64,000 bases of DNA, taken from positions 73,713 to 137,712 of the forward strand of contig JAPLKL010000051.1 in assembly GCA_026388095.1 (NCBI GenBank). The letters are read 5' to 3'. Of the stretch, positions 1 to 41,779 are shown in pieces. Position 1 is the first letter of the stretch. Every line of letters begins with the position of its first letter. The stretch is from Elusimicrobiota bacterium (GTDB taxonomy: Bacteria; Elusimicrobiota; Elusimicrobia; UBA1565; UBA9628). The notes under the pieces are model-generated. The model was given only the letters and a program-made list of their open reading frames with translations, did no database searches and was not told the origin of the DNA. The position numbers were made by a program, and so were the translations under genes.

Positions 1-68
1 AGCTCAACGCCGCCAAGCTCCTCCCGGGCATCGCGAGCCACCCGGAAGTCTCCGCCGGCCTCGGCTCC

Positions 69-1709
69 TTGCGCCTGGCCGTCCTGGGGTCGAGCACCAC
101 GACGCAGCTCCTGCCGCTGCTGCGCCTGCATGCCTTCTGGGAAGGACTGCGCCTGGACATCTACGACGCGCCGTTCGGGGCTTATCAGCAGGAGATCCTC
201 GACCCGGGCTCAGGGCTCTACCGGTTCCAGCCGCAGGCCGCCCTGCTCTACGTCAACTACCGGGATGTCCGGCCCGGCGCGGCGGAAGACGAGGCGGCGC
301 GCTGGGCCTCGCTTTGGGACGCCCTGCGCCAGCGCGCCGCCTGCTCGGTCATCATGAACAACTTCGACCTGCCGGTGGAGCGGCCCTGGGGGAACCTGGA
401 GGGTGCGCGGGGCGACGCGGGCATCGGCCGGCTGCGCCGCCTCAACGCGCTCCTGGCTCAGCGCGCCGGTCAGGGTGTCCTGCTGCTGGACCAGGAACAC
501 CTTTCCGCTTGCGTAGGCAAGGAGCGCTGGCACGACCCGCGCTTCTGGCTGCATTCCCGGCAAGCCGTCGCGCTAGACGCCCTGCCCCGCTACGCCGCCG
601 AGGCGGCGGCCCTGCTCAAGGCCGTCGCGGGCAGGTCGCGCAAGGCCCTGGCCGTGGACCTCGACAACACCCTCTGGGGCGGCATCGTGGGCGACGACGG
701 CGCCGCCGGCCTCGAGCTGGGCGAGACGCCCCGAGGCGAGGCCTTCATCGAGTTCCAGCGCTACCTCAAGGCCCTGCGCGAGCGCGGGGTGCTGCTGGCC
801 GTCTGCTCCAAGAACGACCCCGGCCGGGCCCGGGAGCCCTTCCAGTCCAGGCCGGAGATGGCCCTGCGCCTGGAGGACTTCGCCGCCTTCGAAGCCAGTT
901 GGGGCGACAAGGTCGCGGGCCTGCGCGCCGTGGCCCGCGCCCTCAACGTCGGGCTCGACGCCCTGGCTTTCGCGGACGACAATCCCGCGGAGCGGGAGCT
1001 GGTCAAGCGCTGCCTGCCGGAGGTCGCCGTGGTGGACCTGCCCGAGGACCCCTCCGACTGGGTCCGCCGCCTGGACGCCCTGCGCCTCTTCGAGCCGGCC
1101 GCGGTCTCGGCCGAGGATTCCCTGCGCACCGGGCATTTCCAGGCTGAAGCCCGGCGCGCCCAGGTCCGAGAGCAGGCCCCGGACATGCCCGCGTTCCTGC
1201 GCGACCTGCAAATGGTCGCCCGGACCGGGCCCTTCGCGCCCGCCGACCTGGAGCGCATCGCCCAGCTCATCAACAAGACCAACCAGTTCAACCTCACCAC
1301 CAGACGCTACACCGAGGCGCAGGTGCGCGCCTTCATGCAGGACCCCTCCTGCTGGACCTTGGCGGTCCGCTTGAGCGACCGGTTCGGCGATTACGGCCTC
1401 ATCTCCGCGGCCATCGCGCGGCGCCGCGGCGCCGCCCTGGACCTGGATACCTGGTTGATGAGCTGCCGGGTCTTCGGCCGCGGCGTGGAGGATCTCGTGT
1501 TCAATCTCCTCCTTGCAGAGGCCCGGGAGCGCGGAGCCGAGGCCATCCTCGCCGACTACGCGCCCACGCCCAAGAACGACCCGGTCCGGGACCTTCTGCC
1601 CGGCCTCGGTTTCCGCAAGACGCAGGACGGCCGGTGGCGGCTGCAGGTCAGCGAGGCCAAGCCGCGGGAGGTGACGATCCAGCATGGATCCGCAAGCCCT
1701 GCACCTTGA
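69..1709 (+). CDS. FkbH-like HAD-superfamily phosphatase/glyceryl-ACP loader; may be 5'-truncated (frame is open to window start, listed start is TTG)
   Basis: DLDNTLWGG (DxDxT HAD motif), CSKND, FkbH-type C-terminal region (NKTNQFNLTTRRY); followed directly by an ACP gene. Confidence 0.7.
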   Translation: MRLAVLGSSTTTQLLPLLRLHAFWEGLRLDIYDAPFGAYQQEILDPGSGLYRFQPQAALLYVNYRDVRPGAAEDEAARWASLWDALRQRAACSVIMNNFDLPVERPWGNLEGARGDAGIGRLRRLNALLAQRAGQGVLLLDQEHLSACVGKERWHDPRFWLHSRQAVALDALPRYAAEAAALLKAVAGRSRKALAVDLDNTLWGGIVGDDGAAGLELGETPRGEAFIEFQRYLKALRERGVLLAVCSKNDPGRAREPFQSRPEMALRLEDFAAFEASWGDKVAGLRAVARALNVGLDALAFADDNPAERELVKRCLPEVAVVDLPEDPSDWVRRLDALRLFEPAAVSAEDSLRTGHFQAEARRAQVREQAPDMPAFLRDLQMVARTGPFAPADLERIAQLINKTNQFNLTTRRYTEAQVRAFMQDPSCWTLAVRLSDRFGDYGLISAAIARRRGAALDLDTWLMSCRVFGRGVEDLVFNLLLAEARERGAEAILADYAPTPKNDPVRDLLPGLGFRKTQDGRWRLQVSEAKPREVTIQHGSASPAP

Positions 1710-1938
1710 GGTCCAGGCCGTCTTCCGCCGGGTCTTCGACCGCGAGGACCTCATCCTGCGCGACGACACCGCCGCCCGGGACATACCGGACTGGGATTCC
1801 CTGGCCCAGATCAACCTGGTGGTAGGCGCCGAGGAGGCCTTCGGCGTGCGCTTCCAGACCGCGGAGATACGGGCCCTCAAGAACGTCGGCGGATTCAAGC
1901 AGCTCATCGCCGGAAAGCTGGCGGCCCAGGGGCGCTGA
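1684..1938 (+). CDS. acyl carrier protein
   Basis: 84 aa, DWDSLAQINLV with conserved Ser of the DSL phosphopantetheine motif; overlaps the FkbH 3' end (translational coupling). Confidence 0.7.
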   Translation: MDPQALHLEVQAVFRRVFDREDLILRDDTAARDIPDWDSLAQINLVVGAEEAFGVRFQTAEIRALKNVGGFKQLIAGKLAAQGR

Positions 1939-2855
1939 TGCGGGTCCTGGTCACGGGCAGCGCCGGCTTCCTGGGCCGGGCCCTGGTCGAACGCCTGCGC
2001 CGCCGCGCAGGCCTGCGCCTGTTCCTGACCGACATCCTGCCGGCGCCCCGCTCCCGGACCTGCGACCTGCTCGACCGCGACGCGGCCCGGGGACTGGTCC
2101 GGGACTGCCGGCCGCGGCTCGTCTTCCACATGGCGGGGATGACCCGGCCCGGGCCCTGGCAGGACCTCTGGGACGCCCACGTGACCACCACCGTCAACCT
2201 GCTCGACGCGCTGCTGCGGCTGCCCCGGGCGCAACGGCCCCGGGTCGTGGTCGCCGGGTCCTCCGCCGAGTACGGCGCGGCGCGCCGTCTGCCGGTGACC
2301 GAGTCCGCGCCCCCCCGGCCGGTCTCGGTCTACGGCGCCACGAAGCTCTCCCAGACTTTGGCCGCGCTCTCCTTCCGCCATCACGGCCTCGTGGTCGCCG
2401 TGGCCAGGATGTTCAACGTGATGGGGCCGGGGATGCCCGAGCACCTGGCTCTGGGCAGCTTCGCCAGGCAGATCGCCTCGGCCGAGGCGGCCGGCGGACC
2501 GGCCCGGGTCATGGTCGGCGACCTCGGCACGCGCCGGGACTATATCGACGTGCGCGATGCCGCCGCCGCCCTGGAAGCGCTGTCCTCACCTCAGGTGCCT
2601 GGCGGGGTGTTCAATGTCTGCTCCGGACGATCCCGGACCATGCGCGAGCTTCTGTCGCGGCTGACCGCGATGTCCGCCTGTCCGGTCGGCGTGTCGGTGG
2701 ATCGCGCGCGCCTGCGCCCGTCCGACGTGCGGGAATTCTACGGCGACTCCCGCAGACTTCGGCGCGCCACGGGCTGGAAGCCGCTCATCCCGCCCGCGCA
2801 AAGCCTGCGGGACACTTTGGACTGGCATCGGTGCCGCCTGGCGGCGCGGACATGA
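1938..2855 (+). CDS. NAD-dependent epimerase/dehydratase family SDR
   Basis: N-terminal VTGSAGFLG Rossmann motif, YGATK catalytic YxxxK. Confidence 0.75.
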   Translation: MRVLVTGSAGFLGRALVERLRRRAGLRLFLTDILPAPRSRTCDLLDRDAARGLVRDCRPRLVFHMAGMTRPGPWQDLWDAHVTTTVNLLDALLRLPRAQRPRVVVAGSSAEYGAARRLPVTESAPPRPVSVYGATKLSQTLAALSFRHHGLVVAVARMFNVMGPGMPEHLALGSFARQIASAEAAGGPARVMVGDLGTRRDYIDVRDAAAALEALSSPQVPGGVFNVCSGRSRTMRELLSRLTAMSACPVGVSVDRARLRPSDVREFYGDSRRLRRATGWKPLIPPAQSLRDTLDWHRCRLAART

Positions 2856-3823
2856 CGAGCATCCGCCCCGGCCTTCCCGAGGATGGTCCCGGCATGCGGG
2901 AGCTCTTCGCGCTCTGCCATGAGCGGGAGCTCCCCGCGGACCTCTGGGACTGGCGCTACCGCGGCGGCCCGGAGGGCGGCGCGCTCATCGATGTGGCGGT
3001 CGACGACGGCCGCGTGGTGGGCCACCTCGCCGCTTTGCCCGTCCGGCTGGAGCGCGGGGAGCGGACGCTCGCGGCCGCTTTATGGGTCGACCTCATGGTC
3101 CATCCCGCCCACCGCAACCTCGACGTGTTCCTGGAGATGGCCGAGGCCAACCGGGCCCACTGCGCCGCCGCGGGCCGCGAGCTGCTCTTCGCCTTCCCCA
3201 ACGACCGCAGCTTCCCTCTGCTCAAGCGCATGCTCGATTGGCATGCGGTGGAGGACGTCGCGGCCCTGGAAGCGCCCCTGTCCGGCCTGGCCCAGCCCGG
3301 CCCGCCGGCCTCGGGCTGGCAAGTGGCTACGGGCTTGGAGCCGGCCCCGGAATTCGACGCGTTCTGGGAGGAGGTGCGGCCGCGCGAGGCCTGGGCCGTC
3401 CGGCGCGGCCAGGCCCGGCTGGCCTGGCGCTATCTGGCCAAGCCCCGAGCCGGCTACGGGTTCTGGACGGCGCGGGACGAGACCGGCCGGCTGCGCGGCT
3501 GGCTCGCCGCCAAGGTCTTCGCCGGAGCGCCGGGCCCCGTGGGCGACATCCTCGATTTCTGGGTCGCGGCCGGCGCCGAGCCGGCCCTCTGCGGGCTCTG
3601 GGGAGCCGCACTCGGTCATTTCCGGAAGCACGCCGTGCTCACGGTCTCGGCTTGGGCCTTGCGCGGCACGCCGTGGTTCACCCGCTACCAGGAGCTGGGG
3701 CTGGGGCCCTGCGGCCCCATCACGCATTTCGCCGGCCGTCGGACCTCGTCCGGCGGCGCTGCGGCGTTCCCCGGACTCGGCCGCGATTGGCACATAGCCA
3801 AAGGAGACTCCGATGTCTTTTAA
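2852..3823 (+). CDS. GNAT/FemAB-like acyltransferase (putative)
   Basis: ATGA start/stop overlap with upstream gene; acyl-CoA N-acyltransferase-like fold features; weak family call. Confidence 0.45.
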   Translation: MTSIRPGLPEDGPGMRELFALCHERELPADLWDWRYRGGPEGGALIDVAVDDGRVVGHLAALPVRLERGERTLAAALWVDLMVHPAHRNLDVFLEMAEANRAHCAAAGRELLFAFPNDRSFPLLKRMLDWHAVEDVAALEAPLSGLAQPGPPASGWQVATGLEPAPEFDAFWEEVRPREAWAVRRGQARLAWRYLAKPRAGYGFWTARDETGRLRGWLAAKVFAGAPGPVGDILDFWVAAGAEPALCGLWGAALGHFRKHAVLTVSAWALRGTPWFTRYQELGLGPCGPITHFAGRRTSSGGAAAFPGLGRDWHIAKGDSDVF

Positions 3824-4448
3824 CGTCCTGGCCGTTTCCGCCCATTTCGACGACGCCGAGATCGGCTGTGGGGGGACGCTCGCCCGGCATGTGCGCGCCG
3901 GCGACCGGACCTACCTCTACGTGGCCACCCGTTCCGACTACGCCGACCTCGACCAGCGTCCCATCCGCTCCGCGCGGACCGCCCTGCGGGAGGGGACCCG
4001 GGCGGCCCGGGCCATCGGCGCGCGCCTCATCACCGGGGATTTCCCGACCTTCGGGCTGCGCTATGACGACGCCCTCATCTGCGCGGTGCGCCGGATCATC
4101 GAGGAGAAGCGCATCGACACCCTTTATCTGCCCTGGACGGGCGACGCCCACCAGGACCACCGCGCTTTAGCGCGCGCCGCCATCACGGCCGGGCGCCACT
4201 GCCCGCGGCTGCTCATGTACCGCATCAACTACTACGACACCGAGGAGACCTTCGAGCCCCGCCACTACGTGGACATCTCGGCGACGATGGCGGCCAAGTC
4301 GCGCGCTTTGCGCGCGCACGCCTCGGAGCATCGCCGCACCGGCGGCCGCTGGCTGGAGTTCATCACCAAGGAGGACCGCACCACGGGCATCAAGCTGGGA
4401 GTCCGCTACGCCGAGGCCTTCCATGTGGTGCGCTATCTGATCCCTTGA
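3813..4448 (+). CDS. PIG-L/LmbE family N-acetylglucosaminyl deacetylase
   Basis: AHFDDAEIGCGG and HQDH zinc-binding motifs; strong AAAGGAG RBS 8 nt upstream. Confidence 0.8.
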   Translation: MSFNVLAVSAHFDDAEIGCGGTLARHVRAGDRTYLYVATRSDYADLDQRPIRSARTALREGTRAARAIGARLITGDFPTFGLRYDDALICAVRRIIEEKRIDTLYLPWTGDAHQDHRALARAAITAGRHCPRLLMYRINYYDTEETFEPRHYVDISATMAAKSRALRAHASEHRRTGGRWLEFITKEDRTTGIKLGVRYAEAFHVVRYLIP

Positions 4449-5575
4449 ACCCGGAGGACGCGGCGCCCCAGATCGTCATCCTGAGCTCCATCGAATGGGG
4501 AGCGGCCTGGCAGCGCCATCAGATGTTCGCGGCGCAGTTCGCCGCGGCCGGCCATGAAGTCTTCTTCGTCGAGAACACGGGCTTCCGCAACCCAGGCCCG
4601 CGGGACCTGGGCCGCCTTTGGAGCCGCCTGGCCGGGCCGGCCGGCGGCGCCAGCAACCCCCGCCCGGCCGGGGTGAGCATCGTCTCCCCCCTCGTCCTGC
4701 CGCCCACCTCGGGGGCCTTCCGCCGGGCCAACGCCGCGGTCTTCATACCGCGCCTGCTGGCCCAGTTGTGCCGGCTCGGCCTGCGGCCGCGGCCGGTGGT
4801 CATCGCCTATTTCGCCACGGAGACCACCTTGGAACTGCTGCGGCGGCTGGATGCGTCCGTGGTGGTCTATGACTGCGCCTCCAACTTCCGCGCCCACCCC
4901 CGGGTTCCCGCCGATTTCCCGCGCCAGGAGGCCGAGTTGCTGCGCCTGGCGGGCCTGGTGGTCTGCGACTCGGACTTCCTCTTGCGCCAGAAGCAGGCCG
5001 AGCACCCCCGGGTGGTCCAGATCCACCAGGGCGTCAGCGAGGATTTCCTCGAGGCGAAGCCGCCGCGTCCGGATTTCCGCCGCTTCTGCTACTACGGGAC
5101 CTGGGTCCCGGACCTGGATCCGGCCTTCTTGATCGCCCTGGCAGAAGCGGGCTTCGAGGTGACGGTCAGCGGCTTCTGCAAAGGACAGCCGCCCGACTGG
5201 CCCCCATCCATCCGGCGCTTGCCCCCCGCGCCCCTGGAAGGACTGGTCAAGCGGCTGGAGGAGTTCGACGTTTTCCTGCTCCCCCACAAGCTCACCCAGT
5301 TCCATCTGGGCGTCATCCCGGCCAAGATCTACGAGATCATGGCCATGGGCCGCCCCGTGCTGGCCACCCCTTTGCCATCCCTGGCGCCCCTGAAGCGGCT
5401 CGTCCACATCGCCGATTCCCCGGCCGACTGGGTGCGCGTCGCCCGGGACCTTCCCAGGACCGAGACCGCGGCCCTGCGGGAGGAGCGCATCGCCCTGGCC
5501 AAAGAGCATACCCATGCCAAGGAATTCCGGCGCTTCCAAGAGGCGGTCCGAGGGGCTTGGGAGCGAAATAGATAA
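4445..5575 (+). CDS. glycosyltransferase (GT4-like C-terminal domain)
   Basis: C-terminal E(x7)E-type region EIMAMGRPVLATP; codon bias favours + strand over antisense ORF 4433..5578. Confidence 0.6.
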   Translation: MNPEDAAPQIVILSSIEWGAAWQRHQMFAAQFAAAGHEVFFVENTGFRNPGPRDLGRLWSRLAGPAGGASNPRPAGVSIVSPLVLPPTSGAFRRANAAVFIPRLLAQLCRLGLRPRPVVIAYFATETTLELLRRLDASVVVYDCASNFRAHPRVPADFPRQEAELLRLAGLVVCDSDFLLRQKQAEHPRVVQIHQGVSEDFLEAKPPRPDFRRFCYYGTWVPDLDPAFLIALAEAGFEVTVSGFCKGQPPDWPPSIRRLPPAPLEGLVKRLEEFDVFLLPHKLTQFHLGVIPAKIYEIMAMGRPVLATPLPSLAPLKRLVHIADSPADWVRVARDLPRTETAALREERIALAKEHTHAKEFRRFQEAVRGAWERNR

Positions 5576-9594: not shown

Positions 9595-9826
9595 ATACTG
9601 GAACAAATTCCGCGGCTGGGCCCGACACTTCGGGGCCATCCGGGCCGAGGAGCCGCAAGCCTTCAGTTGGTGACGGGGATATTCTCGGACTGGTTCCTCA
9701 TGGACCGCAAGCTGACCCTGGTCAAAGGCCAGGTCGTGTCCCTGAGCGGGCAGGCCCAGCGGTACCCGCTCACCGAGGATTGGGACGCCGTCGCGCCCGA
9801 GGCCATCGGCTTCTGATTATGGTACA

Positions 9827-9845
9827 ATGTTCAATATTCGAACAT
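9827..9845. promoter_or_regulatory. palindromic operator candidate ATGTTCAATATTCGAACAT next to TGGTACAAT extended -10
   Basis: 6-bp arms ATGTTC/GAACAT, AT-rich in a 65% GC background, 10 nt upstream of the wHTH regulator start; the motif recurs at 34031 and 28692. Confidence 0.4.
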
Positions 9846-9854
9846 AGTTCCCAA

Positions 9855-10415
9855 ATGCCCACCCACGACGACACCCTGGCGGAAAAAGAATTCCTCCTCA
9901 TCCAGGAATTATCCCGCAAGCCCAACAGCACCCAGCGCGACCTCTCCCAGAACCTGGGGCTCTCCTTGGGAACGACGAACCTCCTCATCCGCAGGCTGGC
10001 GCGCAAGGGCATCATCAAGGTCACCCAGCTCGACTGGAAGCGCACCCAGTACCTGCTGACCCTCAAGGGCGCGGTGGAGAAGATGCGCAAGGCCTACCAC
10101 TACACCCGCTACACCTTGCGCATCTTCCGCCAGATCCAGGATAACATCAACACGGTCCTCACCCGGGAACACCGCGCCGGCCGCAGGGATTTCGTCCTCG
10201 TGGCCCGCGACGAGATATTGGAGCTCGTCCGAGAGACGGCGGCGGACCTGTCCCTGGCCGACGCGACCTTCACTTTCGTGCCCGCCTTCGACGAGGTCCC
10301 TGCGCGGGCGGACTTGGTCCTTACCGCGACCTTGGAGCCGGCTCCGAGACCCGTCAACGGCCGCCGCTACATGAGCCTGGTGGACTTCGACGACATAGAT
10401 TTCCGCATCCCTTGA
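9855..10415 (+). CDS. winged-HTH (MarR-like) transcriptional regulator
   Basis: N-terminal wHTH EKEFLLIQELSRKPNSTQRDLSQNLGLSLGTTNLLIRRLARKGII. Confidence 0.55.
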   Translation: MPTHDDTLAEKEFLLIQELSRKPNSTQRDLSQNLGLSLGTTNLLIRRLARKGIIKVTQLDWKRTQYLLTLKGAVEKMRKAYHYTRYTLRIFRQIQDNINTVLTREHRAGRRDFVLVARDEILELVRETAADLSLADATFTFVPAFDEVPARADLVLTATLEPAPRPVNGRRYMSLVDFDDIDFRIP

Positions 10416-11457: not shown

Positions 11458-12339
11458 ATGAAGGGGATCATACTGGCCGGCGGAGCGGGCACTCGGCTCT
11501 ACCCATGCACCAAGGTCGTGAGCAAGCAGATGATGCCGGTCTACGACAAGCCCATGATCTACTATCCGCTCAGCGTCCTGATGCTGGCCGGCATCCGCGA
11601 GGCGCTGATCATCAGCACGCCTCACGATCTGCCCTTCTTCCGCGAGCTCCTGGGAGACGGGACGCGCCTCGGGATGCGCTTCGCCTACGCCGAGCAGCCT
11701 CGCCCCGAGGGCCTGGCCCAGGCCTTCCTCATCGGCAAGGACTTCCTGGCCGGAGAGCCGGCCGGCCTGATCCTGGGCGACAACATCCTTTACGGCCATG
11801 GCATGACCGAGATGCTGCAGAAGGCGGCGCAGACCAGCCACGGCGGCCTCATCTTCGCGTATCAGGTGAAAGACCCGGAACGCTATGGCGTCGTGGAGTT
11901 CGACGCCCACGGCAAAGCCATCTCGCTGGCCGAAAAGCCCAAACGGCCCAAGAGCCACTACGCGGTCCCCGGCCTGTATTTCTACGGGCCCGAGGTTTGC
12001 GCCGAGGCGGCCAAGCTCAAGCCCAGCCCCCGCAACGAGTTGGAGATCACCGATCTCAACACCGCCTTCCTAAAGCGCGGGGAACTGCAGGTCCTGAAGA
12101 TGGGCCGGGGCATCGCCTGGCTCGATACCGGGACGCACCAGAGCCTCATGGACGCGGCGAGCTTCGTCCAGACGGTCCAGGACCGCCAAGGGCTCATGGT
12201 GGCCTGCCTTGAAGAGATCGCCTTGATGGCCGGCTGGATCGGGCTGGATGAGGTCAAGGCCGAGGCGGAAAGGATGGGCAAGAGCCCCTACTCCAGCTAT
12301 CTGCGGCATCTGCTGGCGCCAGACAGCGAAATTCAGTGA
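11458..12339 (+). CDS. rmlA: glucose-1-phosphate thymidylyltransferase
   Basis: [36 protein letters not shown] signature motifs. Confidence 0.9.
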
Positions 12340-21651: not shown

Positions 21652-23583
21652 CTAGAGTGGTCTCTTCTTGGTCGCGGCGACGGCCGAGAGCTTGTTGTCC
21701 AGCTCCTGCAGAGCCAACAGGATCACCACGAGCCGGCGGTCATGGGCGAAAGATATCCTGTCGAAGAGGCGCAGGACCAATCGTCGGACCCGGGTCCCGA
21801 GGTCGCGCCAGGGAGGGCCAGGCGGCGGCAACAGGGGCTTCTGGGTGGAACGGACCATGGCGGACCAGCGCTGCAGGTGCGCCGCGAGGGACCGGTCCAG
21901 AACGAACTGGTCGAGGGCGCCCCGGTCAGGCGCCAGCTCCTTCCAGGCGGGTCCGGCGGCCTCTTGGGCGCACAGGAAGCTCTCCGCGGCCCGGCCGACC
22001 TCTCCCGGCTCTCCTCCGAGGCGAGTCCGGAGCTCCAGGATCTCGCGCGCCAGCTCCAGCGTCTTGAGTTCGCTGCGGAAAGACTCTTCCAACAGGCCCA
22101 ACGCGGCCCCCTCGTCGCCTAGGGCGCGGTGATACCGGCCTAGGAGCAGGTTCCGGTTGAGGGTCTTGGTGATCCCGAACAGGTTGGCGTAGCCCAGAGC
22201 CTCCGCCTCGGCGCAGAAGGCCTCGAACTTGCGCAGCCGGTCGGGGAAGGTGTTGCGGCCGTCTTTGGACGACCAGAACAGCTCTCCCAGAGAGACGTCC
22301 ACGCCGAAGCGGTCCGGGTCGGCCATGACCGCGCTGCCCTCGGGGAAATAGCAGAAGTTGAGTGCCGGGTTTATGAGCAGGCGCCGGCGGTGCCGGCGCA
22401 GCTTCCGGATGAAGGACAGCTGCTCCTGGAAGTCGGCTTCGGTCTCTCCGGGCAGACCGAACATCATGTTGAGGCCGACCGTGATACCGGCTTTGGCTCC
22501 GCTGACCACCACAGCCTCGAAATCAGCGTCGAGGCAGGCATTTTTTCCCACGCTGCGCAGGAGCGTCTTGGCCGGAGTCTCCAGGCCGTAGCCGATGAGG
22601 GAGCAGCCGGCGCGCTTGAGCTTGCGATGGAGACGGTCATCCATCTCGCGGCGGATGACCGCGTTTTCAAGGTCGAATCCCACCTTCAGGCCGCTGGCTA
22701 TGAGCAGGTCGCAGAAGGATTCCAGCTCCCGGATGTTGCCGTTGGAGACCGAATCGTGTATCCGGAAGAATTCAGTGCGCGGGTGGAGCTGGAGTTGGTG
22801 ACGGATCTCGGCCAGCACTCGCGCGCCGGTGCGGCAGCGGAATTTCGGGAAGAACTGATTCTCGGTGCAGTAGCAGCAGTGGTTGATGCAGCCGCGTGAG
22901 AAGTAAGTGGGCAGGACGTTGTGGCCCGCGTAGAGGTCCAGCTCGAAGTCGGAGAAGTCGGGGAAGGGCAGGGAATCCAGCGGGCTGATGAGCTCCCGGG
23001 ACGGGCCGGCCACGGGTTTGCCGTCCTCTCCCCGCTGAGCCACGCCGGCGATTGGGCGGGGCTCGCCGGCATCGGCCGCGAGCCATTCGGTCAGCGCGGC
23101 CTCGCCTTCGCCGAAGACCACCGCATCCGCCAGTCCCTCGCGCAGGAGTTCCCTCCAAGCCCGCGTGTAAGGCGCCACCTGGGGACCGCCGAAGACCAAT
23201 CTGATCTCGGGAGCGACCTGCCGGAATTTGGCGGCCAGCAGACGGGCGGCCAGCAATGAAGAGCAGTGCGTCGATAGTCCTACGGCCCGGGGGTTCTGGG
23301 CGAGTATCGACTGCACGGAGGCGAGCAGCTCGTCCGCGTAATAGGCGAACATCCCTTCCATGAAGGAGGGGCTTTCCCAGGAGTTGTAGCCGTTGGCCGG
23401 AGCCCAGGTATCCGAGTAGGAGCTGCCGCGAAGGTTGTAGAGGATGATATTGAGGTCGAAGGTCCGGGCGCGCAGGCCCTGCCCTGTCAGATAGCTCTTG
23501 AGTTGGGCCAGGCCCAGGGGCGGATTCTGATTGGCCCAGCCGGGGGGCTGCACGAGGGCGATGTCGAGTCCGGGCTGATTCAC
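21652..23583 (-). CDS. B12-binding radical SAM enzyme with C-terminal helical/TPR-like extension (GTG start after GGAGG RBS)
   Basis: CINHCCYC CxxxCxxC; GTG start overlaps the upstream stop (GTGA); the listed 740-aa ORF has an implausible Pro/Ala-rich N-terminus. Confidence 0.75.
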   Translation of the reverse strand: MNQPGLDIALVQPPGWANQNPPLGLAQLKSYLTGQGLRARTFDLNIILYNLRGSSYSDTWAPANGYNSWESPSFMEGMFAYYADELLASVQSILAQNPRAVGLSTHCSSLLAARLLAAKFRQVAPEIRLVFGGPQVAPYTRAWRELLREGLADAVVFGEGEAALTEWLAADAGEPRPIAGVAQRGEDGKPVAGPSRELISPLDSLPFPDFSDFELDLYAGHNVLPTYFSRGCINHCCYCTENQFFPKFRCRTGARVLAEIRHQLQLHPRTEFFRIHDSVSNGNIRELESFCDLLIASGLKVGFDLENAVIRREMDDRLHRKLKRAGCSLIGYGLETPAKTLLRSVGKNACLDADFEAVVVSGAKAGITVGLNMMFGLPGETEADFQEQLSFIRKLRRHRRRLLINPALNFCYFPEGSAVMADPDRFGVDVSLGELFWSSKDGRNTFPDRLRKFEAFCAEAEALGYANLFGITKTLNRNLLLGRYHRALGDEGAALGLLEESFRSELKTLELAREILELRTRLGGEPGEVGRAAESFLCAQEAAGPAWKELAPDRGALDQFVLDRSLAAHLQRWSAMVRSTQKPLLPPPGPPWRDLGTRVRRLVLRLFDRISFAHDRRLVVILLALQELDNKLSAVAATKKRPL

Positions 23584-24542
23584 TGCGCACCTCCGCGGCG
23601 GAGCTTCAAGGCCAGGCGCAGGGGCAGGCGCAGGGCCCAGAGCAGCAGGGCCGACGGGAAGCCCGGGACCCGGAGCAACGGCGCCGCGACGCCTTTGCGG
23701 GCGGTGGCGCGCAGGACGCGGACCCCGACCCGCGGCAGCAGTTCGAGCTGCAGGTCCACGAGGGTCAGGCCGTGGCGCGCCAGGAGCCCAGCCAGCGAAC
23801 GACGGCTGAAGAAGACGTGATGGGTCAGGTCCACGGGCAGGTTGCTGCCCCTGTGGCGACGGAAGAAATACCAATCGAAGCAGGCCTCCATGTCATCAGG
23901 TATCTCGATGAAGAGGAAGCCCCCGTCGGCGACGAGCCGGGCGCAGTCGGCCACCACGGCGTTGGGATCCAGGCAGTGCTCCAGGACGTTGCAGAGGATG
24001 ACCAGGTCGGCCTGGTCCCCGTCCGGGACCTGATGCGCGTAGCGCCGCTCTTTGATGATGGCGGGGTGACGGACCGGAGCCGCGATGGGGTCGTAGACTC
24101 GGCACGCCCGCCCGGCCGCGGCCAGTTCCACGAGGCGGAACCCATCGCGGCCGCCGATGTCGAAGACCTGGCGGATGGGACGGCCCCAGCGGGTCTCGAG
24201 ACCCTGCGTGTAATCCGCCAGGTGTCGCGCGCATGCGGACAGGAACTCCTCGTCAGCGTAGACGAGTTCCGGGGAGTCCTTGAAGCGGCTTTCCAGAGCG
24301 TGGTAGGACTCATCATAGATGCGGCCGAGCTCGGCCTCGTCGAAGAAAAGGGCGCGGTAACCGGCGTGGCAGCCGCGGCAGAGCGCCAGGACTTCTTTCG
24401 GCCTCTCTTGGCGACCGATCTTGAGGAGGTATTCCTCATAGGAGGCCTTCATGAGGCCCGCGGCGCGGGCGAGGGCTACGGATTGCCGGATCTCCAGCAG
24501 CGGCGTTTCCGCGCAGACCGGACAGCGGGAGGAGTATCTCAT
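23580..24542 (-). CDS. class I SAM-dependent methyltransferase with N-terminal zinc ribbon
   Basis: CPVC...CRGC, VFDIGGRDG SAM motif I. Confidence 0.65.
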   Translation of the reverse strand: MRYSSRCPVCAETPLLEIRQSVALARAAGLMKASYEEYLLKIGRQERPKEVLALCRGCHAGYRALFFDEAELGRIYDESYHALESRFKDSPELVYADEEFLSACARHLADYTQGLETRWGRPIRQVFDIGGRDGFRLVELAAAGRACRVYDPIAAPVRHPAIIKERRYAHQVPDGDQADLVILCNVLEHCLDPNAVVADCARLVADGGFLFIEIPDDMEACFDWYFFRRHRGSNLPVDLTHHVFFSRRSLAGLLARHGLTLVDLQLELLPRVGVRVLRATARKGVAAPLLRVPGFPSALLLWALRLPLRLALKLRRGGAQ

Positions 24543-25393
24543 GCCGCGGGAGGGCCTCCCGGCGCGGTCTTGCGCAGACAGGCGAGATAGTCGCTATGGC
24601 GCACCAGAGCGGTCCCCGCTCCGGTGAGGAAGCAGAACAAAGGGTAAAGGGCTCGCCCTGCCATGCTTATAGCCTTGCGCAGGACCTTGCGCGGCGCGGA
24701 ATCGTGGTTCCACCGGCTGAGCAGGATATCATACTCGTGGCCGGCGCTGTCGCAAAGCAGGTCCGGCAGGCGCCAAGAGCGGGAGCAATAGCGGGCCCAC
24801 GCCATCTCGAATCCCCAGCGTCCAGCCAGGCGCGCCAGGAGCAGAGGGTCGATCCAGCAGGTATGCTCCGGGTTCACCAAGAAGGAGCGCTTCCAGGCTA
24901 CGTAATGGAATTCGCCCGCGAAGAAGGGGTTGGGGGTGGAGATGAGCAGGATGCCGCCGTCCGCCAGAAGGCGGTGGCAGTTAGCGAAGAAAGCTTCCAA
25001 GTTCCCCAGGTGCTCGACGAGGTCCCCGGCCACGACGACGTCGAAGACCTCCGTGATGGGGAGGGGGCGGGTGACGTCCCCGCAGATCATGTCATAGCCT
25101 TGCGCCCGCAGTTTCTCCACTTCACCGGCCAGATAGTCCACTCCCAGGACGCGCGCGGCCACGTCGCGGATCCGCCGGTGCAGCCAGAGAGGGTCCGAGA
25201 CTGAGCAGCTCGCGTCGTGGCGCACGCAGCCCAGATCCAGGACTCGGCGCCCGCGGCAGAGCTGGGCGATGGCGTCCTCCCTATCAACGGGCCGGCTGCG
25301 GCGCATAGCCTGGGAGAAGGCGAAGCGGTCCTTGCAGGGAAGAGCCTCGGCCGGTCCGTCGCCACGGCCCAAGTCGACGCTCTCCTTACCCAT
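24539..25393 (-). CDS. class I SAM-dependent methyltransferase (alternative start 25426)
   Basis: VLDLGC motif I, VVAGDLVEH; the long listed ORF overlaps the epimerase gene in another frame, so an internal ATGGGTAA start/stop overlap was chosen. Confidence 0.6.
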   Translation of the reverse strand: MGKESVDLGRGDGPAEALPCKDRFAFSQAMRRSRPVDREDAIAQLCRGRRVLDLGCVRHDASCSVSDPLWLHRRIRDVAARVLGVDYLAGEVEKLRAQGYDMICGDVTRPLPITEVFDVVVAGDLVEHLGNLEAFFANCHRLLADGGILLISTPNPFFAGEFHYVAWKRSFLVNPEHTCWIDPLLLARLAGRWGFEMAWARYCSRSWRLPDLLCDSAGHEYDILLSRWNHDSAPRKVLRKAISMAGRALYPLFCFLTGAGTALVRHSDYLACLRKTAPGGPPAA

Positions 25394-26417
25394 GGCGTGC
25401 TGCCGCGGGCTTAGCCGAGAAACCATAGCGCTCGGCATGGGCTCTGTAGTGCTTGACGGTCCGGGCGATGCCTTCCTCGATGGGGACCAGGGGTTCCCAG
25501 GAGAGCTCCCGGCGTATCTTGCCGATGTTGGTGACGTAGTCGCCTGTCTCGACGAAATAACGGTCCTTCGGCCACGGAACGAACTGAACTTCCCCCTGCC
25601 CGACCGCGCGGACCACCAGTTCGGCCATGTCCTTGAAGGCGAGCCCTTTCCCCGAGCCGAGGTTGAAGACGTCGAAATGGATGTCCTTGGCTGCCGCGCC
25701 CACGAGCATGGCCCTGGCCAAGTCCTCCACGTAGATATAGTCCCTTTGCTGAAGGCCTTCACCGTAGACGGTGAGGGGTCGGCCTTCCAGGGCCAGACGG
25801 ATGAACCAGTTGAGTATCCCGTATTTGCCGTGCTTCATCTGCTGGCGGGGGCCGTAAGGATTGGCTATCCGGAAGATGACGGCGTCTAGGCCATGTGCCC
25901 GCTGATAGAAATGATAGTACTTTTCTCCGTTGAGCTTATGCACCCCGTAGATGCTCAGGCAGTTGTACGGGTGGTTCTCGTCGACGGGATTGTACTCGAT
26001 GTCTCCATAGACGAAGCGTGAGCTGGGAAAGATCAGTCGCGCCTTGGGGTTGTGCAGGCGGCAGGCTTCGAGCACCGTAAGATGCCCCCGGCAATTGACG
26101 TCCAGATCATAAAAGGGATCGACGTTGCTGTCGACATAGCTCACCTGGGCGGCCAGATTGAAGATGATGTCCTTGCCCTTGACTGCCTCGGACATCAGGG
26201 GCAGTTCGCGGATATCCCCATATACGAGGCGCACACGATCCTGGATGCCCTCCAGGTTGAAAGGGTTCGCCCCGAACAGGGGGGACATGGTATCGAGGAT
26301 CGTCACCTGCGCGCCGGCCTCCACCGCATAGTGCGCGATCGTGCTGCCTATCATCCCGGTCCCGCCGGTGATGAGGATGTTGGCTCCCGCCAAGGCGCGT
26401 AAGTCATTTTTGGGCAT
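25386..26417 (-). CDS. NAD-dependent epimerase/dehydratase (UDP-sugar 4-epimerase/decarboxylase-like)
   Basis: ILITGGTGMIG, YGVHK. Confidence 0.8.
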   Translation of the reverse strand: MPKNDLRALAGANILITGGTGMIGSTIAHYAVEAGAQVTILDTMSPLFGANPFNLEGIQDRVRLVYGDIRELPLMSEAVKGKDIIFNLAAQVSYVDSNVDPFYDLDVNCRGHLTVLEACRLHNPKARLIFPSSRFVYGDIEYNPVDENHPYNCLSIYGVHKLNGEKYYHFYQRAHGLDAVIFRIANPYGPRQQMKHGKYGILNWFIRLALEGRPLTVYGEGLQQRDYIYVEDLARAMLVGAAAKDIHFDVFNLGSGKGLAFKDMAELVVRAVGQGEVQFVPWPKDRYFVETGDYVTNIGKIRRELSWEPLVPIEEGIARTVKHYRAHAERYGFSAKPAAARHG

Positions 26418-40417: not shown

Positions 40418-41098
40418 TCAGCGCAGCACCCTGATGGCCTGGAAAGCTTCCGCGTAAACAGTCCCGGTCTTGAACCCCCAGGTGGACGCGCAAGCCTTGA
40501 TCCCATCCAAGGATCTCGGATGCGGGGGCTCCCTCAATTCAGCCGAGTATTCCCGCATGGCCGCGAGCTTCTGCTTCATGGTCGCCGCGATGTCGTAGAA
40601 AACCTCGGGACAGAATGTGCAGGGATAAGCCCACTCGGTCGAAGATTGGACCTCAAAGGAATACAGTTCCCTCACCGGTTCGCTCGCAATGGGCCTCGTG
40701 GCGGTAAGGACCGCCTCGTAGGTCACCCGATGGTCGATGTTCAAATCCCCCGCATGGTGCGTGAACAGCAACTGCGGTTCGACCTCGGCCTTGACCTTCT
40801 CTATGGCCTTCACAATGTCCAGCAATGGCACTGTATCGAAACGGTTGTCCGGGAAGTCGAACGAGAAGCCCCTCTTGATGCCCAGGATTCGATTCGCATT
40901 CAAGGTCTGCTTCTTCAAATCTGATATTTCCCGAATCCTCTTGCTTCTGTGCCTGCGTTCATCCCTTGAGGTCGCGCCTTCGCCGAGAATCAGGCAGAAG
41001 GCCTCGTGTCCTTCCTTGACCAAGCGCGCAATCGTCCCCCCGCACCCGAGGACCTGATCATCCGGATGCGCCGCCACGACAAGTATTCTTCTGCTCAC
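40418..41098 (-). CDS. PIG-L/LmbE family deacetylase (second copy)
   Basis: AAHPDDQVLGCGG, HHAGDLNIDH. Confidence 0.8.
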   Translation of the reverse strand: MSRRILVVAAHPDDQVLGCGGTIARLVKEGHEAFCLILGEGATSRDERRHRSKRIREISDLKKQTLNANRILGIKRGFSFDFPDNRFDTVPLLDIVKAIEKVKAEVEPQLLFTHHAGDLNIDHRVTYEAVLTATRPIASEPVRELYSFEVQSSTEWAYPCTFCPEVFYDIAATMKQKLAAMREYSAELREPPHPRSLDGIKACASTWGFKTGTVYAEAFQAIRVLR

Positions 41099-41766
41099 GC
41101 CGCCTCCTTCACTGCCACGAAATTCCAGCTCGCGAACACGTGCTCATCATGAGGGATTTCCTTCCTGACGACCTTGTGCTCCATGACCCGGATCCGAAAA
41201 CCGGAGAAAAGATCCACTATGTGTTTTTTATCGGAAAAATGGACGCAGCCTACGCCGGCGAATTGACCTTCCGCTATCCCGAAGCGTGTGTATTCGTCCT
41301 CCTGATGGGTCCCCTTCCGCGAGTCCGAATGCTGGGTCGAAAACCAATCGATCCCGATGAACTTCCCCCCTGGATTCAAGCGGGCGAGAATCATCTTCAA
41401 GGCGTTCTTGATCCCGGAAGTGGTCGCGTGGGTCAGCGACGAGCGGTCGACGATCAAATCGAACGAGCCCTCGAAAGGAATCTCCGCCGTAAAATCGCCC
41501 GTGACGATCCTGGCCTTGTAGTCGGGGAAGGCCTCCCAAAGTTTCCTGACAATGAATTCGCTACCTTCTATCGCGTAGTAGTCGACACCAAGATGCCGGA
41601 AGAAGGGGATATTGGCGCCCGCTCCACACCCCAACTCCAGGACCTTGAAGGAAGCGCCCTTGGGGGCAGCGTAGCGCCTCACGTAGGAAACCAAGTCCGA
41701 CCAAGGCCAGATGCTCATCTGGGTGTTCTCCCGATACCGGTCGTCCCACTCCTTCGAGAAACCCAT
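41095..41766 (-). CDS. class I SAM-dependent methyltransferase
   Basis: VLELGCGAGAN motif I. Confidence 0.7.
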   Translation of the reverse strand: MGFSKEWDDRYRENTQMSIWPWSDLVSYVRRYAAPKGASFKVLELGCGAGANIPFFRHLGVDYYAIEGSEFIVRKLWEAFPDYKARIVTGDFTAEIPFEGSFDLIVDRSSLTHATTSGIKNALKMILARLNPGGKFIGIDWFSTQHSDSRKGTHQEDEYTRFGIAEGQFAGVGCVHFSDKKHIVDLFSGFRIRVMEHKVVRKEIPHDEHVFASWNFVAVKEAA

Positions 41767-41779
41767 GTCCCCTTTCTCC

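What the first reader, a model, noticed from the sequence alone, without database searches (positions are those of the whole stretch)
69..4448. FkbH-ACP-SDR-GNAT-PIG-L module: candidate glyceryl-ACP-derived N-acyl decoration
An FkbH-type HAD protein (DLDNTLWGG) immediately followed by a stand-alone ACP is the signature of glyceryl-ACP formation from 1,3-bisphosphoglycerate. Here it is coupled to an acyltransferase-like protein and a GlcNAc-type deacetylase inside a glycan locus, with several O-methyltransferases elsewhere in the locus. This suggests deacetylation and re-acylation of an amino sugar with a (possibly O-methylated) glyceroyl group, as known only from a few flagellin-glycan systems.
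Basis: inference. Interest (0 to 1): 0.6.

Follow-up and report, generated by a model that had tools for sequence, protein, structure and literature searches.

The report
ACP-based sugar N-acylation operon
This is the downstream part of an eight-gene operon in an Elusimicrobia bacterium that probably builds a three-carbon hydroxy-acid on a carrier protein and uses it to replace the acetyl group on an amino sugar of a surface glycan; the logic is known, but this gene combination has not been described in the papers I could search.

Summary
The window carries an FkbH-domain protein (TIGR01686, 295 bits against a cut-off of 147; all HAD motifs and the invariant Cys present), a dedicated ACP (WDSL serine), an extended SDR, a tandem GNAT, a PIG-L deacetylase and a glycosyltransferase. 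All six genes overlap start-to-stop, so they form one operon.

The window cuts the operon. In the same population and in relatives, FkbH is always preceded by a MaoC dehydratase and a FabG-like ketoreductase. The four-gene acyl cassette (MaoC, KR, FkbH, ACP) lies next to the GNAT/PIG-L pair in three different gene orders. In one relative it sits between the nucleotidyltransferase and the SDR of an otherwise conserved amino-sugar operon (LegB-like dehydratase, NTP-transferase, SDR, GNAT, PIG-L, GT).

The link between acyl-ACP supply and deacetylation/re-acylation is therefore well supported by synteny. The dehydratase and reductase argue that the final acyl group is lactoyl or pyruvoyl rather than (methylated) glyceroyl. 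The methyltransferases lie at least 18 kb away.

FkbH–ACP pairs are widespread in glycan loci. In other phyla they pair with hexapeptide-repeat or DltB-type transferases. I rate this a new variant of a known kind, of moderate interest.

The parts
1..1709 (+). FkbH-like HAD-IIIC phosphatase/acyl-S-enzyme, with its 5' end cut by the window edge. The ORF finder lists it from 69. The full protein, P0052, has 604 aa. It predictably loads a 1,3-bisphosphoglycerate-derived C3 acyl group onto the ACP.
   Evidence: TIGR01686 scores 294.8 bits against a cut-off of 146.65, and FkbH_N matches at 2.5e-10. PDB 3SLR (BF1531) matches at 1.1e-62 over the N-terminal and HAD domains. D255, D257, S305, K339, D361, D362 and C524 (P0052 numbering) are invariant across 14 homologues of 41-74% identity. 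The frame is open to position 1. L009 overlaps the window, and its gene starts 106 nt upstream.
1684..1938 (+). Dedicated acyl carrier protein of 84 aa, with the phosphopantetheine serine in GWDSL. Its start overlaps the end of FkbH by 26 nt.
   Evidence: PDB 2LML 'putative acyl carrier protein' matches at 1.9e-14, and other ACPs at about 1e-3. The WDS(L/V) motif is conserved in the small ORF that follows FkbH in L002, L010, L011, L014, L015, L017 and L018, and that follows the MaoC-SDR fusion in L012. In P0170 an ACP-like domain is fused to the N-terminus of FkbH.
1938..2855 (+). Extended SDR (NAD-dependent epimerase/dehydratase family). It is probably the 4-ketoreductase or epimerase of the NDP-6-deoxy-HexNAc branch.
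   Evidence: Pfam Epimerase at 1.1e-35. The best NCBIfam hits are LegB and GalE, both far below their cut-offs. TGSAGFLG and YGATK are present. Orthologues of 47-55% identity sit directly upstream of GNAT in L002, L003, L005 and L006, preceded there by a LegB-like 4,6-dehydratase and an NTP-transferase.
2852..3823 (+). Tandem-GNAT acyltransferase of 323 aa (P0001) with an invariant C-terminus, KGDSDVF. It is the proposed N-acyltransferase that moves the ACP-borne acyl group onto the freed sugar amine.
   Evidence: Acetyltransf_9 at 39.6 bits against a cut-off of 25. The family has about 50 members, nearly all from Elusimicrobia. Invariant residues are listed. The AlphaFold2 model has pLDDT 93.1 and pTM 0.90. 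Foldseek top hits are the tandem GNAT of the clavulanate pathway (2WPW), Eis aminoglycoside acetyltransferases and N-myristoyltransferases.
3813..4448 (+). PIG-L/LmbE-family metal-dependent de-N-acetylase. It always overlaps the end of the GNAT gene.
   Evidence: PF02585 at 71.3 bits against a cut-off of 28.2. BshB1 scores 72.6 bits, below its cut-off of 182.5. AHFDD at residue 10 and HQDH at residue 113. Orthologues of 60-75% identity are paired with GNAT in every related locus.
4445..5575 (+). GT-B-type glycosyltransferase, weakly GT1/GT4/TuaH-like. It is the last gene of the operon.
   Evidence: Weak Pfam hits to Glyco_trans_1_4 and 1_2, and TuaH at 6.9e-07. Orthologues of 59-67% identity follow PIG-L in L002, L003, L005 and L006, and lie convergent to the ACP in L015/L016.
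9780..10415 (+). MarR/HTH_24 regulator. It is the orthologue of the regulator that heads the amino-sugar operon in relatives. Here a toxin-antitoxin insertion separates it from the module.
   Evidence: HTH_24 at 3.8e-10. It is 61% identical to the MarR-like gene directly upstream of the LegB-like dehydratase in L003.

Best explanation
The window holds the last six genes of an eight-gene operon from an Elusimicrobia bacterium: MaoC dehydratase, FabG-like ketoreductase, FkbH, ACP, extended SDR, tandem GNAT, PIG-L, glycosyltransferase. The operon makes an N-(C3-hydroxyacyl) 6-deoxy-hexosamine for a surface glycan.

Acyl branch:
1. FkbH takes 1,3-bisphosphoglycerate, forms a phosphoglyceryl-S-Cys intermediate, removes the phosphate with its HAD domain and passes glyceryl to the dedicated ACP. 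This mechanism is established for OzmB; here it is inferred from intact motifs.
2. The MaoC dehydratase removes the 3-hydroxyl, giving enol-pyruvoyl and then pyruvoyl-ACP.
3. The ketoreductase reduces this to lactoyl-ACP. Steps 2 and 3 are inferred by analogy with 1,3-BPG-derived lactoyl/pyruvoyl starter units of polyketide pathways.

Sugar branch:
1. In relatives, an NTP-transferase and a LegB-like 4,6-dehydratase, followed by the SDR, make an NDP-2-acetamido-2,6-dideoxyhexose.
2. PIG-L removes the N-acetyl group, either before or after the glycosyltransferase installs the sugar.
3. The tandem GNAT re-acylates the free amine with the ACP-borne acyl group.

Shown here: gene content, intact catalytic motifs, operon structure and recurrent synteny. 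Inferred: the substrate of every enzyme, the identity of the acyl group, the order of steps, and ACP rather than CoA as the GNAT's donor.
For: - Family membership and catalytic motifs of all six window proteins.
- All gene junctions overlap.
- Upstream DNA from the same sample (L009, 98.9% identical FkbH, overlapping the window) encodes MaoC (GDVNPLH motif) and an SDR whose best match is FabG.
- The cassette MaoC-KR-FkbH-ACP recurs in L002, L010, L011, L014 and L015/16.
- The GNAT/PIG-L pair is adjacent to the cassette in three gene orders: co-directional (window, L002), divergent (L011, L015/16, L004), and with GT convergent (L015).
- In L002 the cassette lies between the NTP-transferase and the SDR. 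In L003, L005 and L006 those two genes are directly adjacent: MarR, LegB-like dehydratase (447 bits, cut-off 475), NTP-transferase, SDR, GNAT, PIG-L, GT.
- Fusions support the couplings: ACP-FkbH in P0170 and MaoC-SDR in Nitrospira L012.
- Other phyla pair FkbH-ACP with other glycan acyltransferases: hexapeptide-repeat in L012 and DltB-like MBOAT in L017/L018. This shows the pair is a general acyl-donor unit.
- The GNAT fold is closest to tandem GNATs, including Eis, which N-acylates amino sugars.
- Literature: the OzmB mechanism (PMC9057759); pyruvoyl- or lactoyl-ACP derived from 1,3-BPG in lankacidin (PMC6162330); a C. jejuni flagellin locus with the FkbH gene cj1302 and a Pse5(di-O-methylglyceroyl) glycan, for which prior de-N-acetylation was proposed (PMC7099621, PMC3068675).
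Against: - No biochemical data exist for any protein of this clade.
- L003, L005 and L006 keep SDR-GNAT-PIG-L-GT with no cassette within 10 kb. In L003's genome the cassette lies about 28 kb away, next to a NeuB/CMP-nonulosonate cluster. The GNAT may therefore not depend strictly on this ACP, and the cassette may serve another acceptor.
- L004 has MaoC-KR-ACP with an L-2-hydroxyglutarate-oxidase-like flavoprotein and no FkbH. I cannot explain how that ACP is loaded.
- The known relatives by fold (Eis, the clavulanate GNAT, NMT) use acyl-CoA, not acyl-ACP.
- The lactoyl assignment rests only on chemical logic. FabG-like enzymes normally reduce 3-oxo groups, not 2-oxo groups.
- The genes upstream of MaoC in the window's own genome were not recovered.
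Confidence: 0.55

Rival explanations
1. FkbH makes glyceryl-ACP, and the GNAT transfers the glyceroyl group as such, possibly O-methylated by methyltransferases of the locus, onto the deacetylated amino sugar. This is the C. jejuni 2,3-di-O-methylglyceroyl-pseudaminic acid model.
For: FkbH and the ACP are intact. C. jejuni has an FkbH gene in its flagellin glycosylation locus and a di-O-methylglyceroyl N-acyl group. Methyltransferases exist in the window. Some relatives have a methyltransferase near the cassette (L004, L010, L011).
Against: A MaoC dehydratase and a ketoreductase are co-transcribed with FkbH in all eight Elusimicrobia-clade cassette loci seen, and are fused to each other in Nitrospira. 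FkbH-ACP units without them also exist (L017, L018). They therefore look like an acyl-modifying add-on. The window's methyltransferases are at least 18 kb away, beyond a toxin-antitoxin insertion, and no methyltransferase is conserved next to the cassette.
Confidence: 0.2
2. There are two independent units that are merely neighbours. SDR-GNAT-PIG-L-GT is a self-contained amino-sugar block whose GNAT uses an acyl-CoA. The MaoC-KR-FkbH-ACP cassette supplies an acyl group to a different transferase and acceptor, for example a nonulosonic acid or an O-acylation.
For: The block occurs without the cassette in L003, L005 and L006. The cassette occurs without the block in L010, next to NeuB and a CMP-sugar synthetase, and in L014. 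Structural relatives of the GNAT use CoA thioesters.
Against: Adjacency recurs in five independent loci and three gene orders, including an insertion inside the sugar operon with overlapping stop and start codons. A deacetylase and an acetyl-CoA-dependent acetyltransferase acting on the same amine would be futile. No other acyltransferase lies in the operon.
Confidence: 0.17
3. The genes make a small molecule rather than a glycan decoration. One option is a polyketide extender unit (hydroxy- or methoxymalonyl-ACP). The other is a mycothiol/bacillithiol-like glycoside made by GT, PIG-L and a tandem GNAT (MshA/MshB/MshD-like).
For: FkbH is best known from methoxymalonyl-ACP pathways. The GT + PIG-L + tandem GNAT trio mirrors the mycothiol enzymes (my own knowledge). 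The best NCBIfam hit of the PIG-L protein is BshB1.
Against: The window and related loci contain no PKS/NRPS, no FkbI/FkbK/FkbG-type genes and no cysteine ligase. BshB1 scores 72.6 bits against a cut-off of 182.5. The surroundings are Wzy-like, Wzx-like, RmlA, KpsF and many GT genes. Relatives couple the block to an NDP-sugar 4,6-dehydratase and a nucleotidyltransferase.
Confidence: 0.05

Closest known systems
OzmB/FkbH glyceryl-ACP formation in methoxymalonyl-ACP pathways (oxazolomycin, FK520, geldanamycin)
   Same: It shares the FkbH (TIGR01686) HAD plus C-terminal Cys domain and a dedicated ACP encoded next to it. The predicted chemistry is the same: 1,3-BPG to phosphoglyceryl-S-enzyme, then glyceryl-S-enzyme, then glyceryl-ACP.
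   Different: The window protein has 604 aa, with an extra N-terminal FkbH_N domain (as in BF1531, PDB 3SLR) and a leader. OzmB has 366 aa. There are no FkbK/FkbI/FkbG homologues and no PKS. The partners are a MaoC dehydratase, a FabG-like reductase and a GNAT. The context is a glycan locus.
Campylobacter jejuni NCTC 11168 flagellin glycosylation locus (cj1295-cj1304), which makes Pse5(2,3-di-O-methylglyceroyl)7Ac
   Same: An FkbH-domain gene (cj1302) lies in a glycan locus. A C3 hydroxy-acid serves as the N-acyl group of an amino sugar. The working model is removal of the N-acetyl group followed by re-acylation (PMC7099621, PMC3068675).
   Different: The proposed deacetylase there is an aminopeptidase-like protein (Cj1295), not a PIG-L enzyme. 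The acceptor is a nonulosonic acid. From my own recollection of the locus annotation, which I did not check here, it has a methyltransferase and FabH-like genes but no MaoC/KR pair, which fits retention of both oxygens.
1,3-BPG-derived lactoyl/pyruvoyl-ACP starter units of trans-AT polyketide pathways (lankacidin; the bryostatin BryA DH-KR-FkbH-ACP loading module)
   Same: An FkbH-type loader is combined with a dehydratase and a ketoreductase, so the C3 unit ends as lactoyl or pyruvoyl. In lankacidin it ends up as an amide (PMC6162330; BryA from my own knowledge).
   Different: Those are domains of megasynthases with PKS-type DH domains. Here the enzymes are discrete proteins, the dehydratase is MaoC-type, and the acyl group goes to a sugar amine, not to a ketosynthase or condensation domain.
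Deacetylate-then-acylate tailoring of GlcNAc in teicoplanin/A40926 (GT, then a PIG-L-family deacetylase, then an N-acyltransferase) and ACP-dependent N-acylation in butirosin (BtrI/BtrH, with the PIG-L-family BtrD in the cluster)
   Same: The logic is the same: a GT installs HexNAc, a PIG-L/LmbE-family enzyme frees the amine, and a dedicated acyltransferase adds an unusual acyl group. In butirosin the hydroxy-acid is built on, and delivered from, an ACP (my own knowledge).
   Different: Those are antibiotic pathways in actinomycetes and Bacillus. The acyl groups are fatty acyl-CoA or gamma-glutamylated AHBA-ACP. The transferases are not homologous to this tandem GNAT. No sequence comparison was made here.
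Dlt D-alanylation system (DltA-DltC-DltB-DltX-DltD)
   Same: In other phyla the same FkbH-ACP pair is followed by a DltB-like MBOAT (TIGR04091, 216 bits), a small ORF and a protein of about 350 aa. This is a carrier-protein-to-MBOAT route for decorating cell-envelope glycans.
   Different: The window has no MBOAT, and its transferase is a cytoplasmic tandem GNAT. In the Dlt-like loci FkbH stands in the place of the adenylating enzyme DltA.

Membership tests
FkbH family (TIGR01686; glyceryl transferase/phosphatase of the HAD-IIIC subfamily) | Profile score above the curated cut-off over the whole FkbH domain | tested here: met
   294.8 bits against 146.65, covering profile positions 3-321 of 323. 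HAD-IIIC scores 52 bits against 35.75.
FkbH family (TIGR01686; glyceryl transferase/phosphatase of the HAD-IIIC subfamily) | HAD phosphatase motifs: DxDxT nucleophile and acid, S/T of motif II, Lys of motif III, DD of motif IV | tested here: met
   DLDNT at 197, CSKN at 246, WGDK at 278 and DDNP at 303 of the window ORF. All are invariant in 14 homologues.
FkbH family (TIGR01686; glyceryl transferase/phosphatase of the HAD-IIIC subfamily) | Cysteine in the C-terminal domain that carries the (phospho)glyceryl thioester | tested here: inconclusive
   A single invariant Cys (W-L-M-S-C-R; C524 of P0052, C466 of the window ORF) is present. I could not align it to the experimentally mapped Cys of OzmB, because no OzmB sequence was available.
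FkbH family (TIGR01686; glyceryl transferase/phosphatase of the HAD-IIIC subfamily) | Use of 1,3-bisphosphoglycerate and transfer to a cognate ACP | not testable with these tools
   The only evidence is indirect. An ACP gene directly follows FkbH in 8 loci, and in Nitrospira (L012) it follows the MaoC-SDR fusion that lies after FkbH. One protein is an ACP-FkbH fusion.
Acyl carrier protein | Four-helix carrier fold family and a D-S-L phosphopantetheine attachment serine | tested here: met
   There is no Pfam PP-binding hit, and NCBIfam ACP scores 21.9 bits against a cut-off of 84. PDB ACP 2LML matches at 1.9e-14 and other ACPs at about 1e-3. The W-D-S-L serine is conserved across phyla.
GNAT superfamily, tandem-GNAT (Eis / clavulanate CBG / NMT-like) architecture | GNAT profile above cut-off and two GNAT domains in one chain | tested here: met
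   Acetyltransf_9 at 39.6 bits against 25. The AF2 model has pLDDT 93.1. Foldseek gives E about 3e-15 and TM 0.6-0.7 to 2WPW, 2HV2, 3N7Z, 6RFT and NMTs.
GNAT superfamily, tandem-GNAT (Eis / clavulanate CBG / NMT-like) architecture | Acyl-CoA as donor (the canonical R/Q-x-x-G-x-G/A pyrophosphate-binding loop) | tested here: inconclusive
   At the beta4-alpha3 junction the family reads H-R-N-L-x-L/V-F, with no glycines. This was read by eye, not aligned structurally, and it says nothing decisive about CoA versus ACP.
PIG-L / LmbE de-N-acetylases | Profile above cut-off and the metal-binding/catalytic motifs AHPDD-like and HxxH | tested here: met
   PF02585 at 71.3 bits against 28.2. AHFDD at residue 10 and HQDH at residue 113.
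Bacillithiol/mycothiol pathway (BshB/MshB with GT and MshD) | Equivalog-level match to BshB or MshB and presence of a cysteine-adding enzyme | tested here: not met
   BshB1 at 72.6 bits against 182.5, and MshB at 17.4 bits against 224. No ligase is present in the operon.
Methoxymalonyl-ACP pathway (FkbG/H/I/J/K) | 3-hydroxyacyl-CoA dehydrogenase (FkbK), acyl-CoA dehydrogenase (FkbI), O-methyltransferase (FkbG) and a PKS nearby | tested here: not met
   None is found among the annotated window genes or in the related cassettes. The partners are MaoC and a FabG-like SDR instead.
C. jejuni-type (di-O-methyl)glyceroyl N-acylation | Methyltransferase encoded with FkbH/ACP, and no enzymes that remove the glyceryl hydroxyls | tested here: not met
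   The nearest methyltransferases are at 23580..25762 and 41095..42562. A dehydratase and a reductase are co-transcribed with FkbH.

The most novel reading that the evidence does not exclude
FkbH plus its WDSL-type ACP may form a widespread, uncharacterised platform for decorating cell-envelope glycans. It would take a three-carbon acyl unit straight from glycolysis (1,3-BPG) and hand it to interchangeable transferases: a tandem GNAT in Elusimicrobia, a hexapeptide-repeat transferase in Nitrospira, and a DltB-type MBOAT (a 'Dlt system with FkbH in place of DltA') in Verrucomicrobiota and others. An optional MaoC/KR add-on would convert glyceryl to lactoyl. In this window the product would be an N-lactoyl-6-deoxyhexosamine, made by deacetylation and re-acylation.
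Probability: 0.35. Interest if true: 0.7.

Novelty: new variant of a known kind. Interest (0 to 1): 0.5.

Why it matters
Non-acetyl N-acyl groups on bacterial surface sugars shape recognition by antibodies and phages, yet the genes that supply them are mostly unknown. This operon offers a complete, testable gene set: loader, carrier, two acyl-modifying enzymes, deacetylase and transferase. Together they would install a glycolysis-derived C3 hydroxy-acid on an amino sugar. The set shows that the 'HAD-IIIC family phosphatase' annotated in thousands of glycan loci is probably an acyl-ACP loader. It also suggests a simple rule for predicting the acyl group: with MaoC/KR it is lactoyl or pyruvoyl, and without them it is glyceroyl. 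If confirmed, the rule would improve structure prediction from glycan loci in uncultured phyla and provide parts for glycoengineering.

Tried and rejected
- Looking up the exact window proteins to recover the 151-kb NCBI contig returned only short Logan contigs (L001 of 6.2 kb, L009 of 3.0 kb). The ACP sequence was not on record. The genes upstream of MaoC in the window's own genome therefore remain unseen.
- The genome-contig scan with the GNAT alignment gave 7 loci. L007 (Omnitrophota, 23% identity) and L008 (a 52-residue match) were too distant to use.
- A sequence search of the PDB with the GNAT found nothing, so only the fold search was informative.
- Literature searches for FkbH with polysaccharide, flagellin, O-antigen or MaoC, and for HAD-IIIC with ACP, gave only the C. 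jejuni cj1302 mention. I could not find BryA or Dorrestein 2006 in the held library, so those points rest on my own knowledge or on reviews.
- I considered and rejected a methoxymalonyl/PKS role, a thiol-cofactor pathway, and the SDR at 1938..2855 acting on the acyl-ACP. The SDR travels with the sugar genes in loci that lack the cassette.
- I did not model the FkbH structure, because coordinates cannot be inspected with these tools.

Full report
**1. What is in the window**

Positions 1..5575 carry six plus-strand genes whose stops and starts overlap: FkbH/ACP by 26 nt, then TGATG, ATGA, an 11-nt overlap, and TTGA. They form one operon.

- **FkbH (69..1709 as listed).** It is a bona fide FkbH-domain protein. 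TIGR01686 scores 294.8 bits (cut-off 146.65), and HAD-IIIC and Pfam FkbH_N also match. Its N-terminal and HAD parts match the solved but uncharacterised Bacteroides fragilis protein BF1531 (3SLR, 1.1e-62). The reading frame is open to position 1. The full-length protein (P0052, 604 aa) starts 106 nt before the window. The HAD motifs (DLDNT, CSKN, K, DDNP) and a single Cys in W-L-M-S-C-R are invariant in homologues down to 41% identity.
- **ACP (1684..1938).** It escapes Pfam but matches the solved ACP 2LML at 1.9e-14. It has the attachment serine in G-W-D-S-L.
- **Remaining genes.**
  - an extended SDR (1938..2855);
  - a tandem GNAT (2852..3823; model pLDDT 93; Foldseek hits to the clavulanate tandem GNAT, Eis and N-myristoyltransferases);
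  - a PIG-L deacetylase with its metal motifs (3813..4448);
  - a GT-B glycosyltransferase (4445..5575).

**2. Surroundings**

The source is an Elusimicrobia metagenome-assembled genome (names). Downstream of the operon lies an AbiEii/AbiEi toxin-antitoxin pair and other unrelated genes (5.7-9.7 kb, GC 0.60). After that comes a long glycan locus containing:
- a MarR-like regulator, KpsF/GutQ and RmlA;
- three Wzy_C-like proteins and a Wzx-like flippase;
- several GTs;
- three B12-radical-SAM enzymes;
- SAM methyltransferases;
- a second PIG-L gene.

The module has 71.6% GC against 61% for the rest of the window.

**3. The part the window does not show**

A contig from the same sample (L009) overlaps the window; window position 1 equals L009 position 1187. 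Directly upstream of FkbH it carries a FabG-like short-chain reductase (236 aa), and before that a MaoC-type dehydratase with the G-D-x-N-P-L-H hydratase motif.

The four-gene cassette MaoC-KR-FkbH-ACP recurs in every Elusimicrobia-type relative examined: L002, L010, L011, L014 and L015/16. In Nitrospira, MaoC and the SDR are fused, and a hexapeptide-repeat acyltransferase precedes FkbH. One homologue (P0170) has an ACP-like domain fused to FkbH.

**4. Is the cassette linked to GNAT/PIG-L?**

The GNAT family is small, about 50 sequences, nearly all from Elusimicrobia, and its gene always overlaps a PIG-L gene. The pair sits next to the cassette in three arrangements:
- co-directional, in the window and L002;
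- divergent, in L011, L015/16 and L004;
- with the conserved GT convergent to the ACP, in L015.

The most telling comparison is between two layouts:
- L003, L005 and L006 have MarR, LegB-like NDP-HexNAc 4,6-dehydratase (TIGR04180, 447 bits, cut-off 475), NTP-transferase, SDR, GNAT, PIG-L, GT.
- L002 has the same NTP-transferase, then MaoC-KR-FkbH-ACP, then SDR, GNAT, PIG-L, GT.

So the acyl cassette sits inside the sugar operon.

Against a strict link:
- L003, L005 and L006 lack the cassette within 10 kb.
- In L003's genome the cassette lies about 28 kb away, beside a NeuB/CMP-nonulosonate cluster.
- L004 has MaoC-KR-ACP with an L-2-hydroxyglutarate-oxidase-like flavoprotein instead of FkbH.

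**5. Most likely mechanism**

*Acyl branch.*
1. FkbH converts 1,3-bisphosphoglycerate via a phosphoglyceryl-S-enzyme into glyceryl-ACP. This is the OzmB mechanism as summarised in PMC9057759.
2. MaoC dehydrates the 3-hydroxyacyl thioester to enol-pyruvoyl and then pyruvoyl-ACP.
3. The ketoreductase gives lactoyl-ACP.

The precedent for lactoyl- or pyruvoyl-ACP from 1,3-BPG is lankacidin (PMC6162330). From my own knowledge, the BryA DH-KR-FkbH-ACP loading module is a second one. FkbH-ACP units without MaoC/KR exist (L017, L018). As I recall the C. jejuni locus, it also lacks them, and its product keeps both oxygens. This pattern fits MaoC/KR being the step that changes the acyl group.

*Sugar branch.* An NDP-2-acetamido-2,6-dideoxyhexose is made by the nucleotidyltransferase, the 4,6-dehydratase and the SDR. 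PIG-L removes the acetyl group. The tandem GNAT adds the ACP-borne acyl group. The GT installs the sugar. The order of these steps is unknown.

Only gene content, motifs and synteny are shown. All substrates and the ACP dependence of the GNAT are inferred. I put 0.55 on this overall picture. That breaks down to about 0.8 for 'FkbH loads this ACP with a C3 acyl group', about 0.65 for coupling to GNAT/PIG-L, and about 0.45 for lactoyl or pyruvoyl as the final group.

**6. Rivals**

The co-transcribed dehydratase and reductase and the distant methyltransferases weaken it.
- (b) Independent neighbouring units, with a CoA-dependent GNAT: 0.17. The cassette-less blocks support it. The insertion and the three gene orders weaken it.
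- (c) A small-molecule pathway, either a methoxymalonyl extender or a thiol-like glycoside: 0.05. There is no PKS, no FkbI/K/G and no ligase. BshB1 scores far below its cut-off. The context is a glycan locus.

**7. Comparison with known systems**

- The module works like OzmB/FkbH for loading.
- It works like lankacidin/bryostatin starter-unit formation for C3 processing.
- It works like teicoplanin (GT, PIG-L-type deacetylase, N-acyltransferase) and butirosin (ACP-borne hydroxy-acid transferred to an amine) for the tailoring logic.
- It resembles the C. jejuni flagellin locus (FkbH gene cj1302, di-O-methylglyceroyl-Pse, proposed de-N-acetylation) in its biological role.

The FkbH protein is a member of the FkbH family by profile and motifs. 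The operon does not belong to the methoxymalonyl, bacillithiol/mycothiol or C. jejuni-type pathways, because defining components were tested and found absent. The held literature contains no paper that mentions FkbH together with MaoC or O-antigen, and no description of FkbH in a polysaccharide locus apart from the C. jejuni mention.

**8. Verdict**

This is a new variant of a known kind: ACP-dependent replacement of an N-acetyl group on a surface sugar. It has a gene combination not described before, and its cassette extends beyond the window. Interest is moderate, 0.5. The broader reading, a widespread FkbH-ACP glycan-acylation platform with interchangeable GNAT, LbH and DltB-type transferases, would deserve more, about 0.7. 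It has roughly 0.35 probability on present evidence.

Noticed in passing
L017:8001-12578 and L018:8001-12659: In other phyla (Verrucomicrobiota and an unnamed 5.2-Mb genome), FkbH-ACP is followed by a DltB-like MBOAT (TIGR04091, 216 bits), a 51-57-aa ORF and a protein of about 350 aa. This looks like a Dlt-type system with FkbH in the place of DltA, which suggests extracytoplasmic O-acylation of an envelope polymer with a C3 acid.
   Followed up: partly
L012:9349-13882 (Nitrospira defluvii): The gene order is hexapeptide-repeat acyltransferase, FkbH, a single 547-aa MaoC-SDR fusion, then a 78-aa ACP. The fusion supports the idea that the dehydratase and reductase work together on the ACP-bound acyl group.
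   Followed up: partly
L004:7371-9956 (minus strand): A relative has MaoC-KR-ACP followed by an L-2-hydroxyglutarate-oxidase-like flavoprotein (NF008726, 316 bits, above the cut-off of 299). It has no FkbH within 20 kb, and the cassette is divergent from GNAT/PIG-L. How this ACP is loaded is unexplained.
   Followed up: partly
L010:386-9294: In the genome of L003 the MaoC-KR-FkbH-ACP cassette lies next to a nonulosonic-acid cluster (NeuB, PseB-like dehydratase, CMP-sugar synthetase, HisH/HisF-like amidotransferase pair, methyltransferase, a 489-aa acetyltransferase). This recalls the C. jejuni arrangement.
   Followed up: no
window 1-5575 versus the rest: The module has 71.6% GC, against 59.7% for the next 4 kb and 61.2% for the remaining 54 kb. 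Together with the toxin-antitoxin genes next to it, this may indicate horizontal acquisition.
   Followed up: no
window 5708-7293 (minus strand): An AbiEii toxin / AbiEi antitoxin pair lies directly after the operon. It is followed by a SEC-C-motif protein (7407-8045) and other unrelated ORFs, which separate the module from the MarR-like regulator and the rest of the glycan locus.
   Followed up: partly
window 40418-44281 (minus strand): A second PIG-L deacetylase (32% identical to the first) lies in a separate operon with a SAM methyltransferase, a TylF-like O-methyltransferase, a WbqC-family protein and a DegT-type aminotransferase. This is another amino-sugar tailoring unit.
   Followed up: no
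window 18087-19595 (+), 21652-23874 (-), 39010-40506 (-): The glycan locus holds three B12-binding radical SAM enzymes. Relatives also have them next to the cassette (L014). Their role in glycan modification, possibly C-methylation, is unknown.
   Followed up: no
window 12336-14742 (+) and 29929-31152 (-): There are three Wzy_C/O-antigen-ligase-like membrane proteins in one window. The third sits in a low-GC stretch (30-32 kb, GC 0.48).
   Followed up: no
P0170 (FkbH homologue, 704 aa): An N-terminal ACP-like domain (…HDSVNMLNLM…) is fused to a full FkbH protein. This fusion links carrier and loader.
   Followed up: partly
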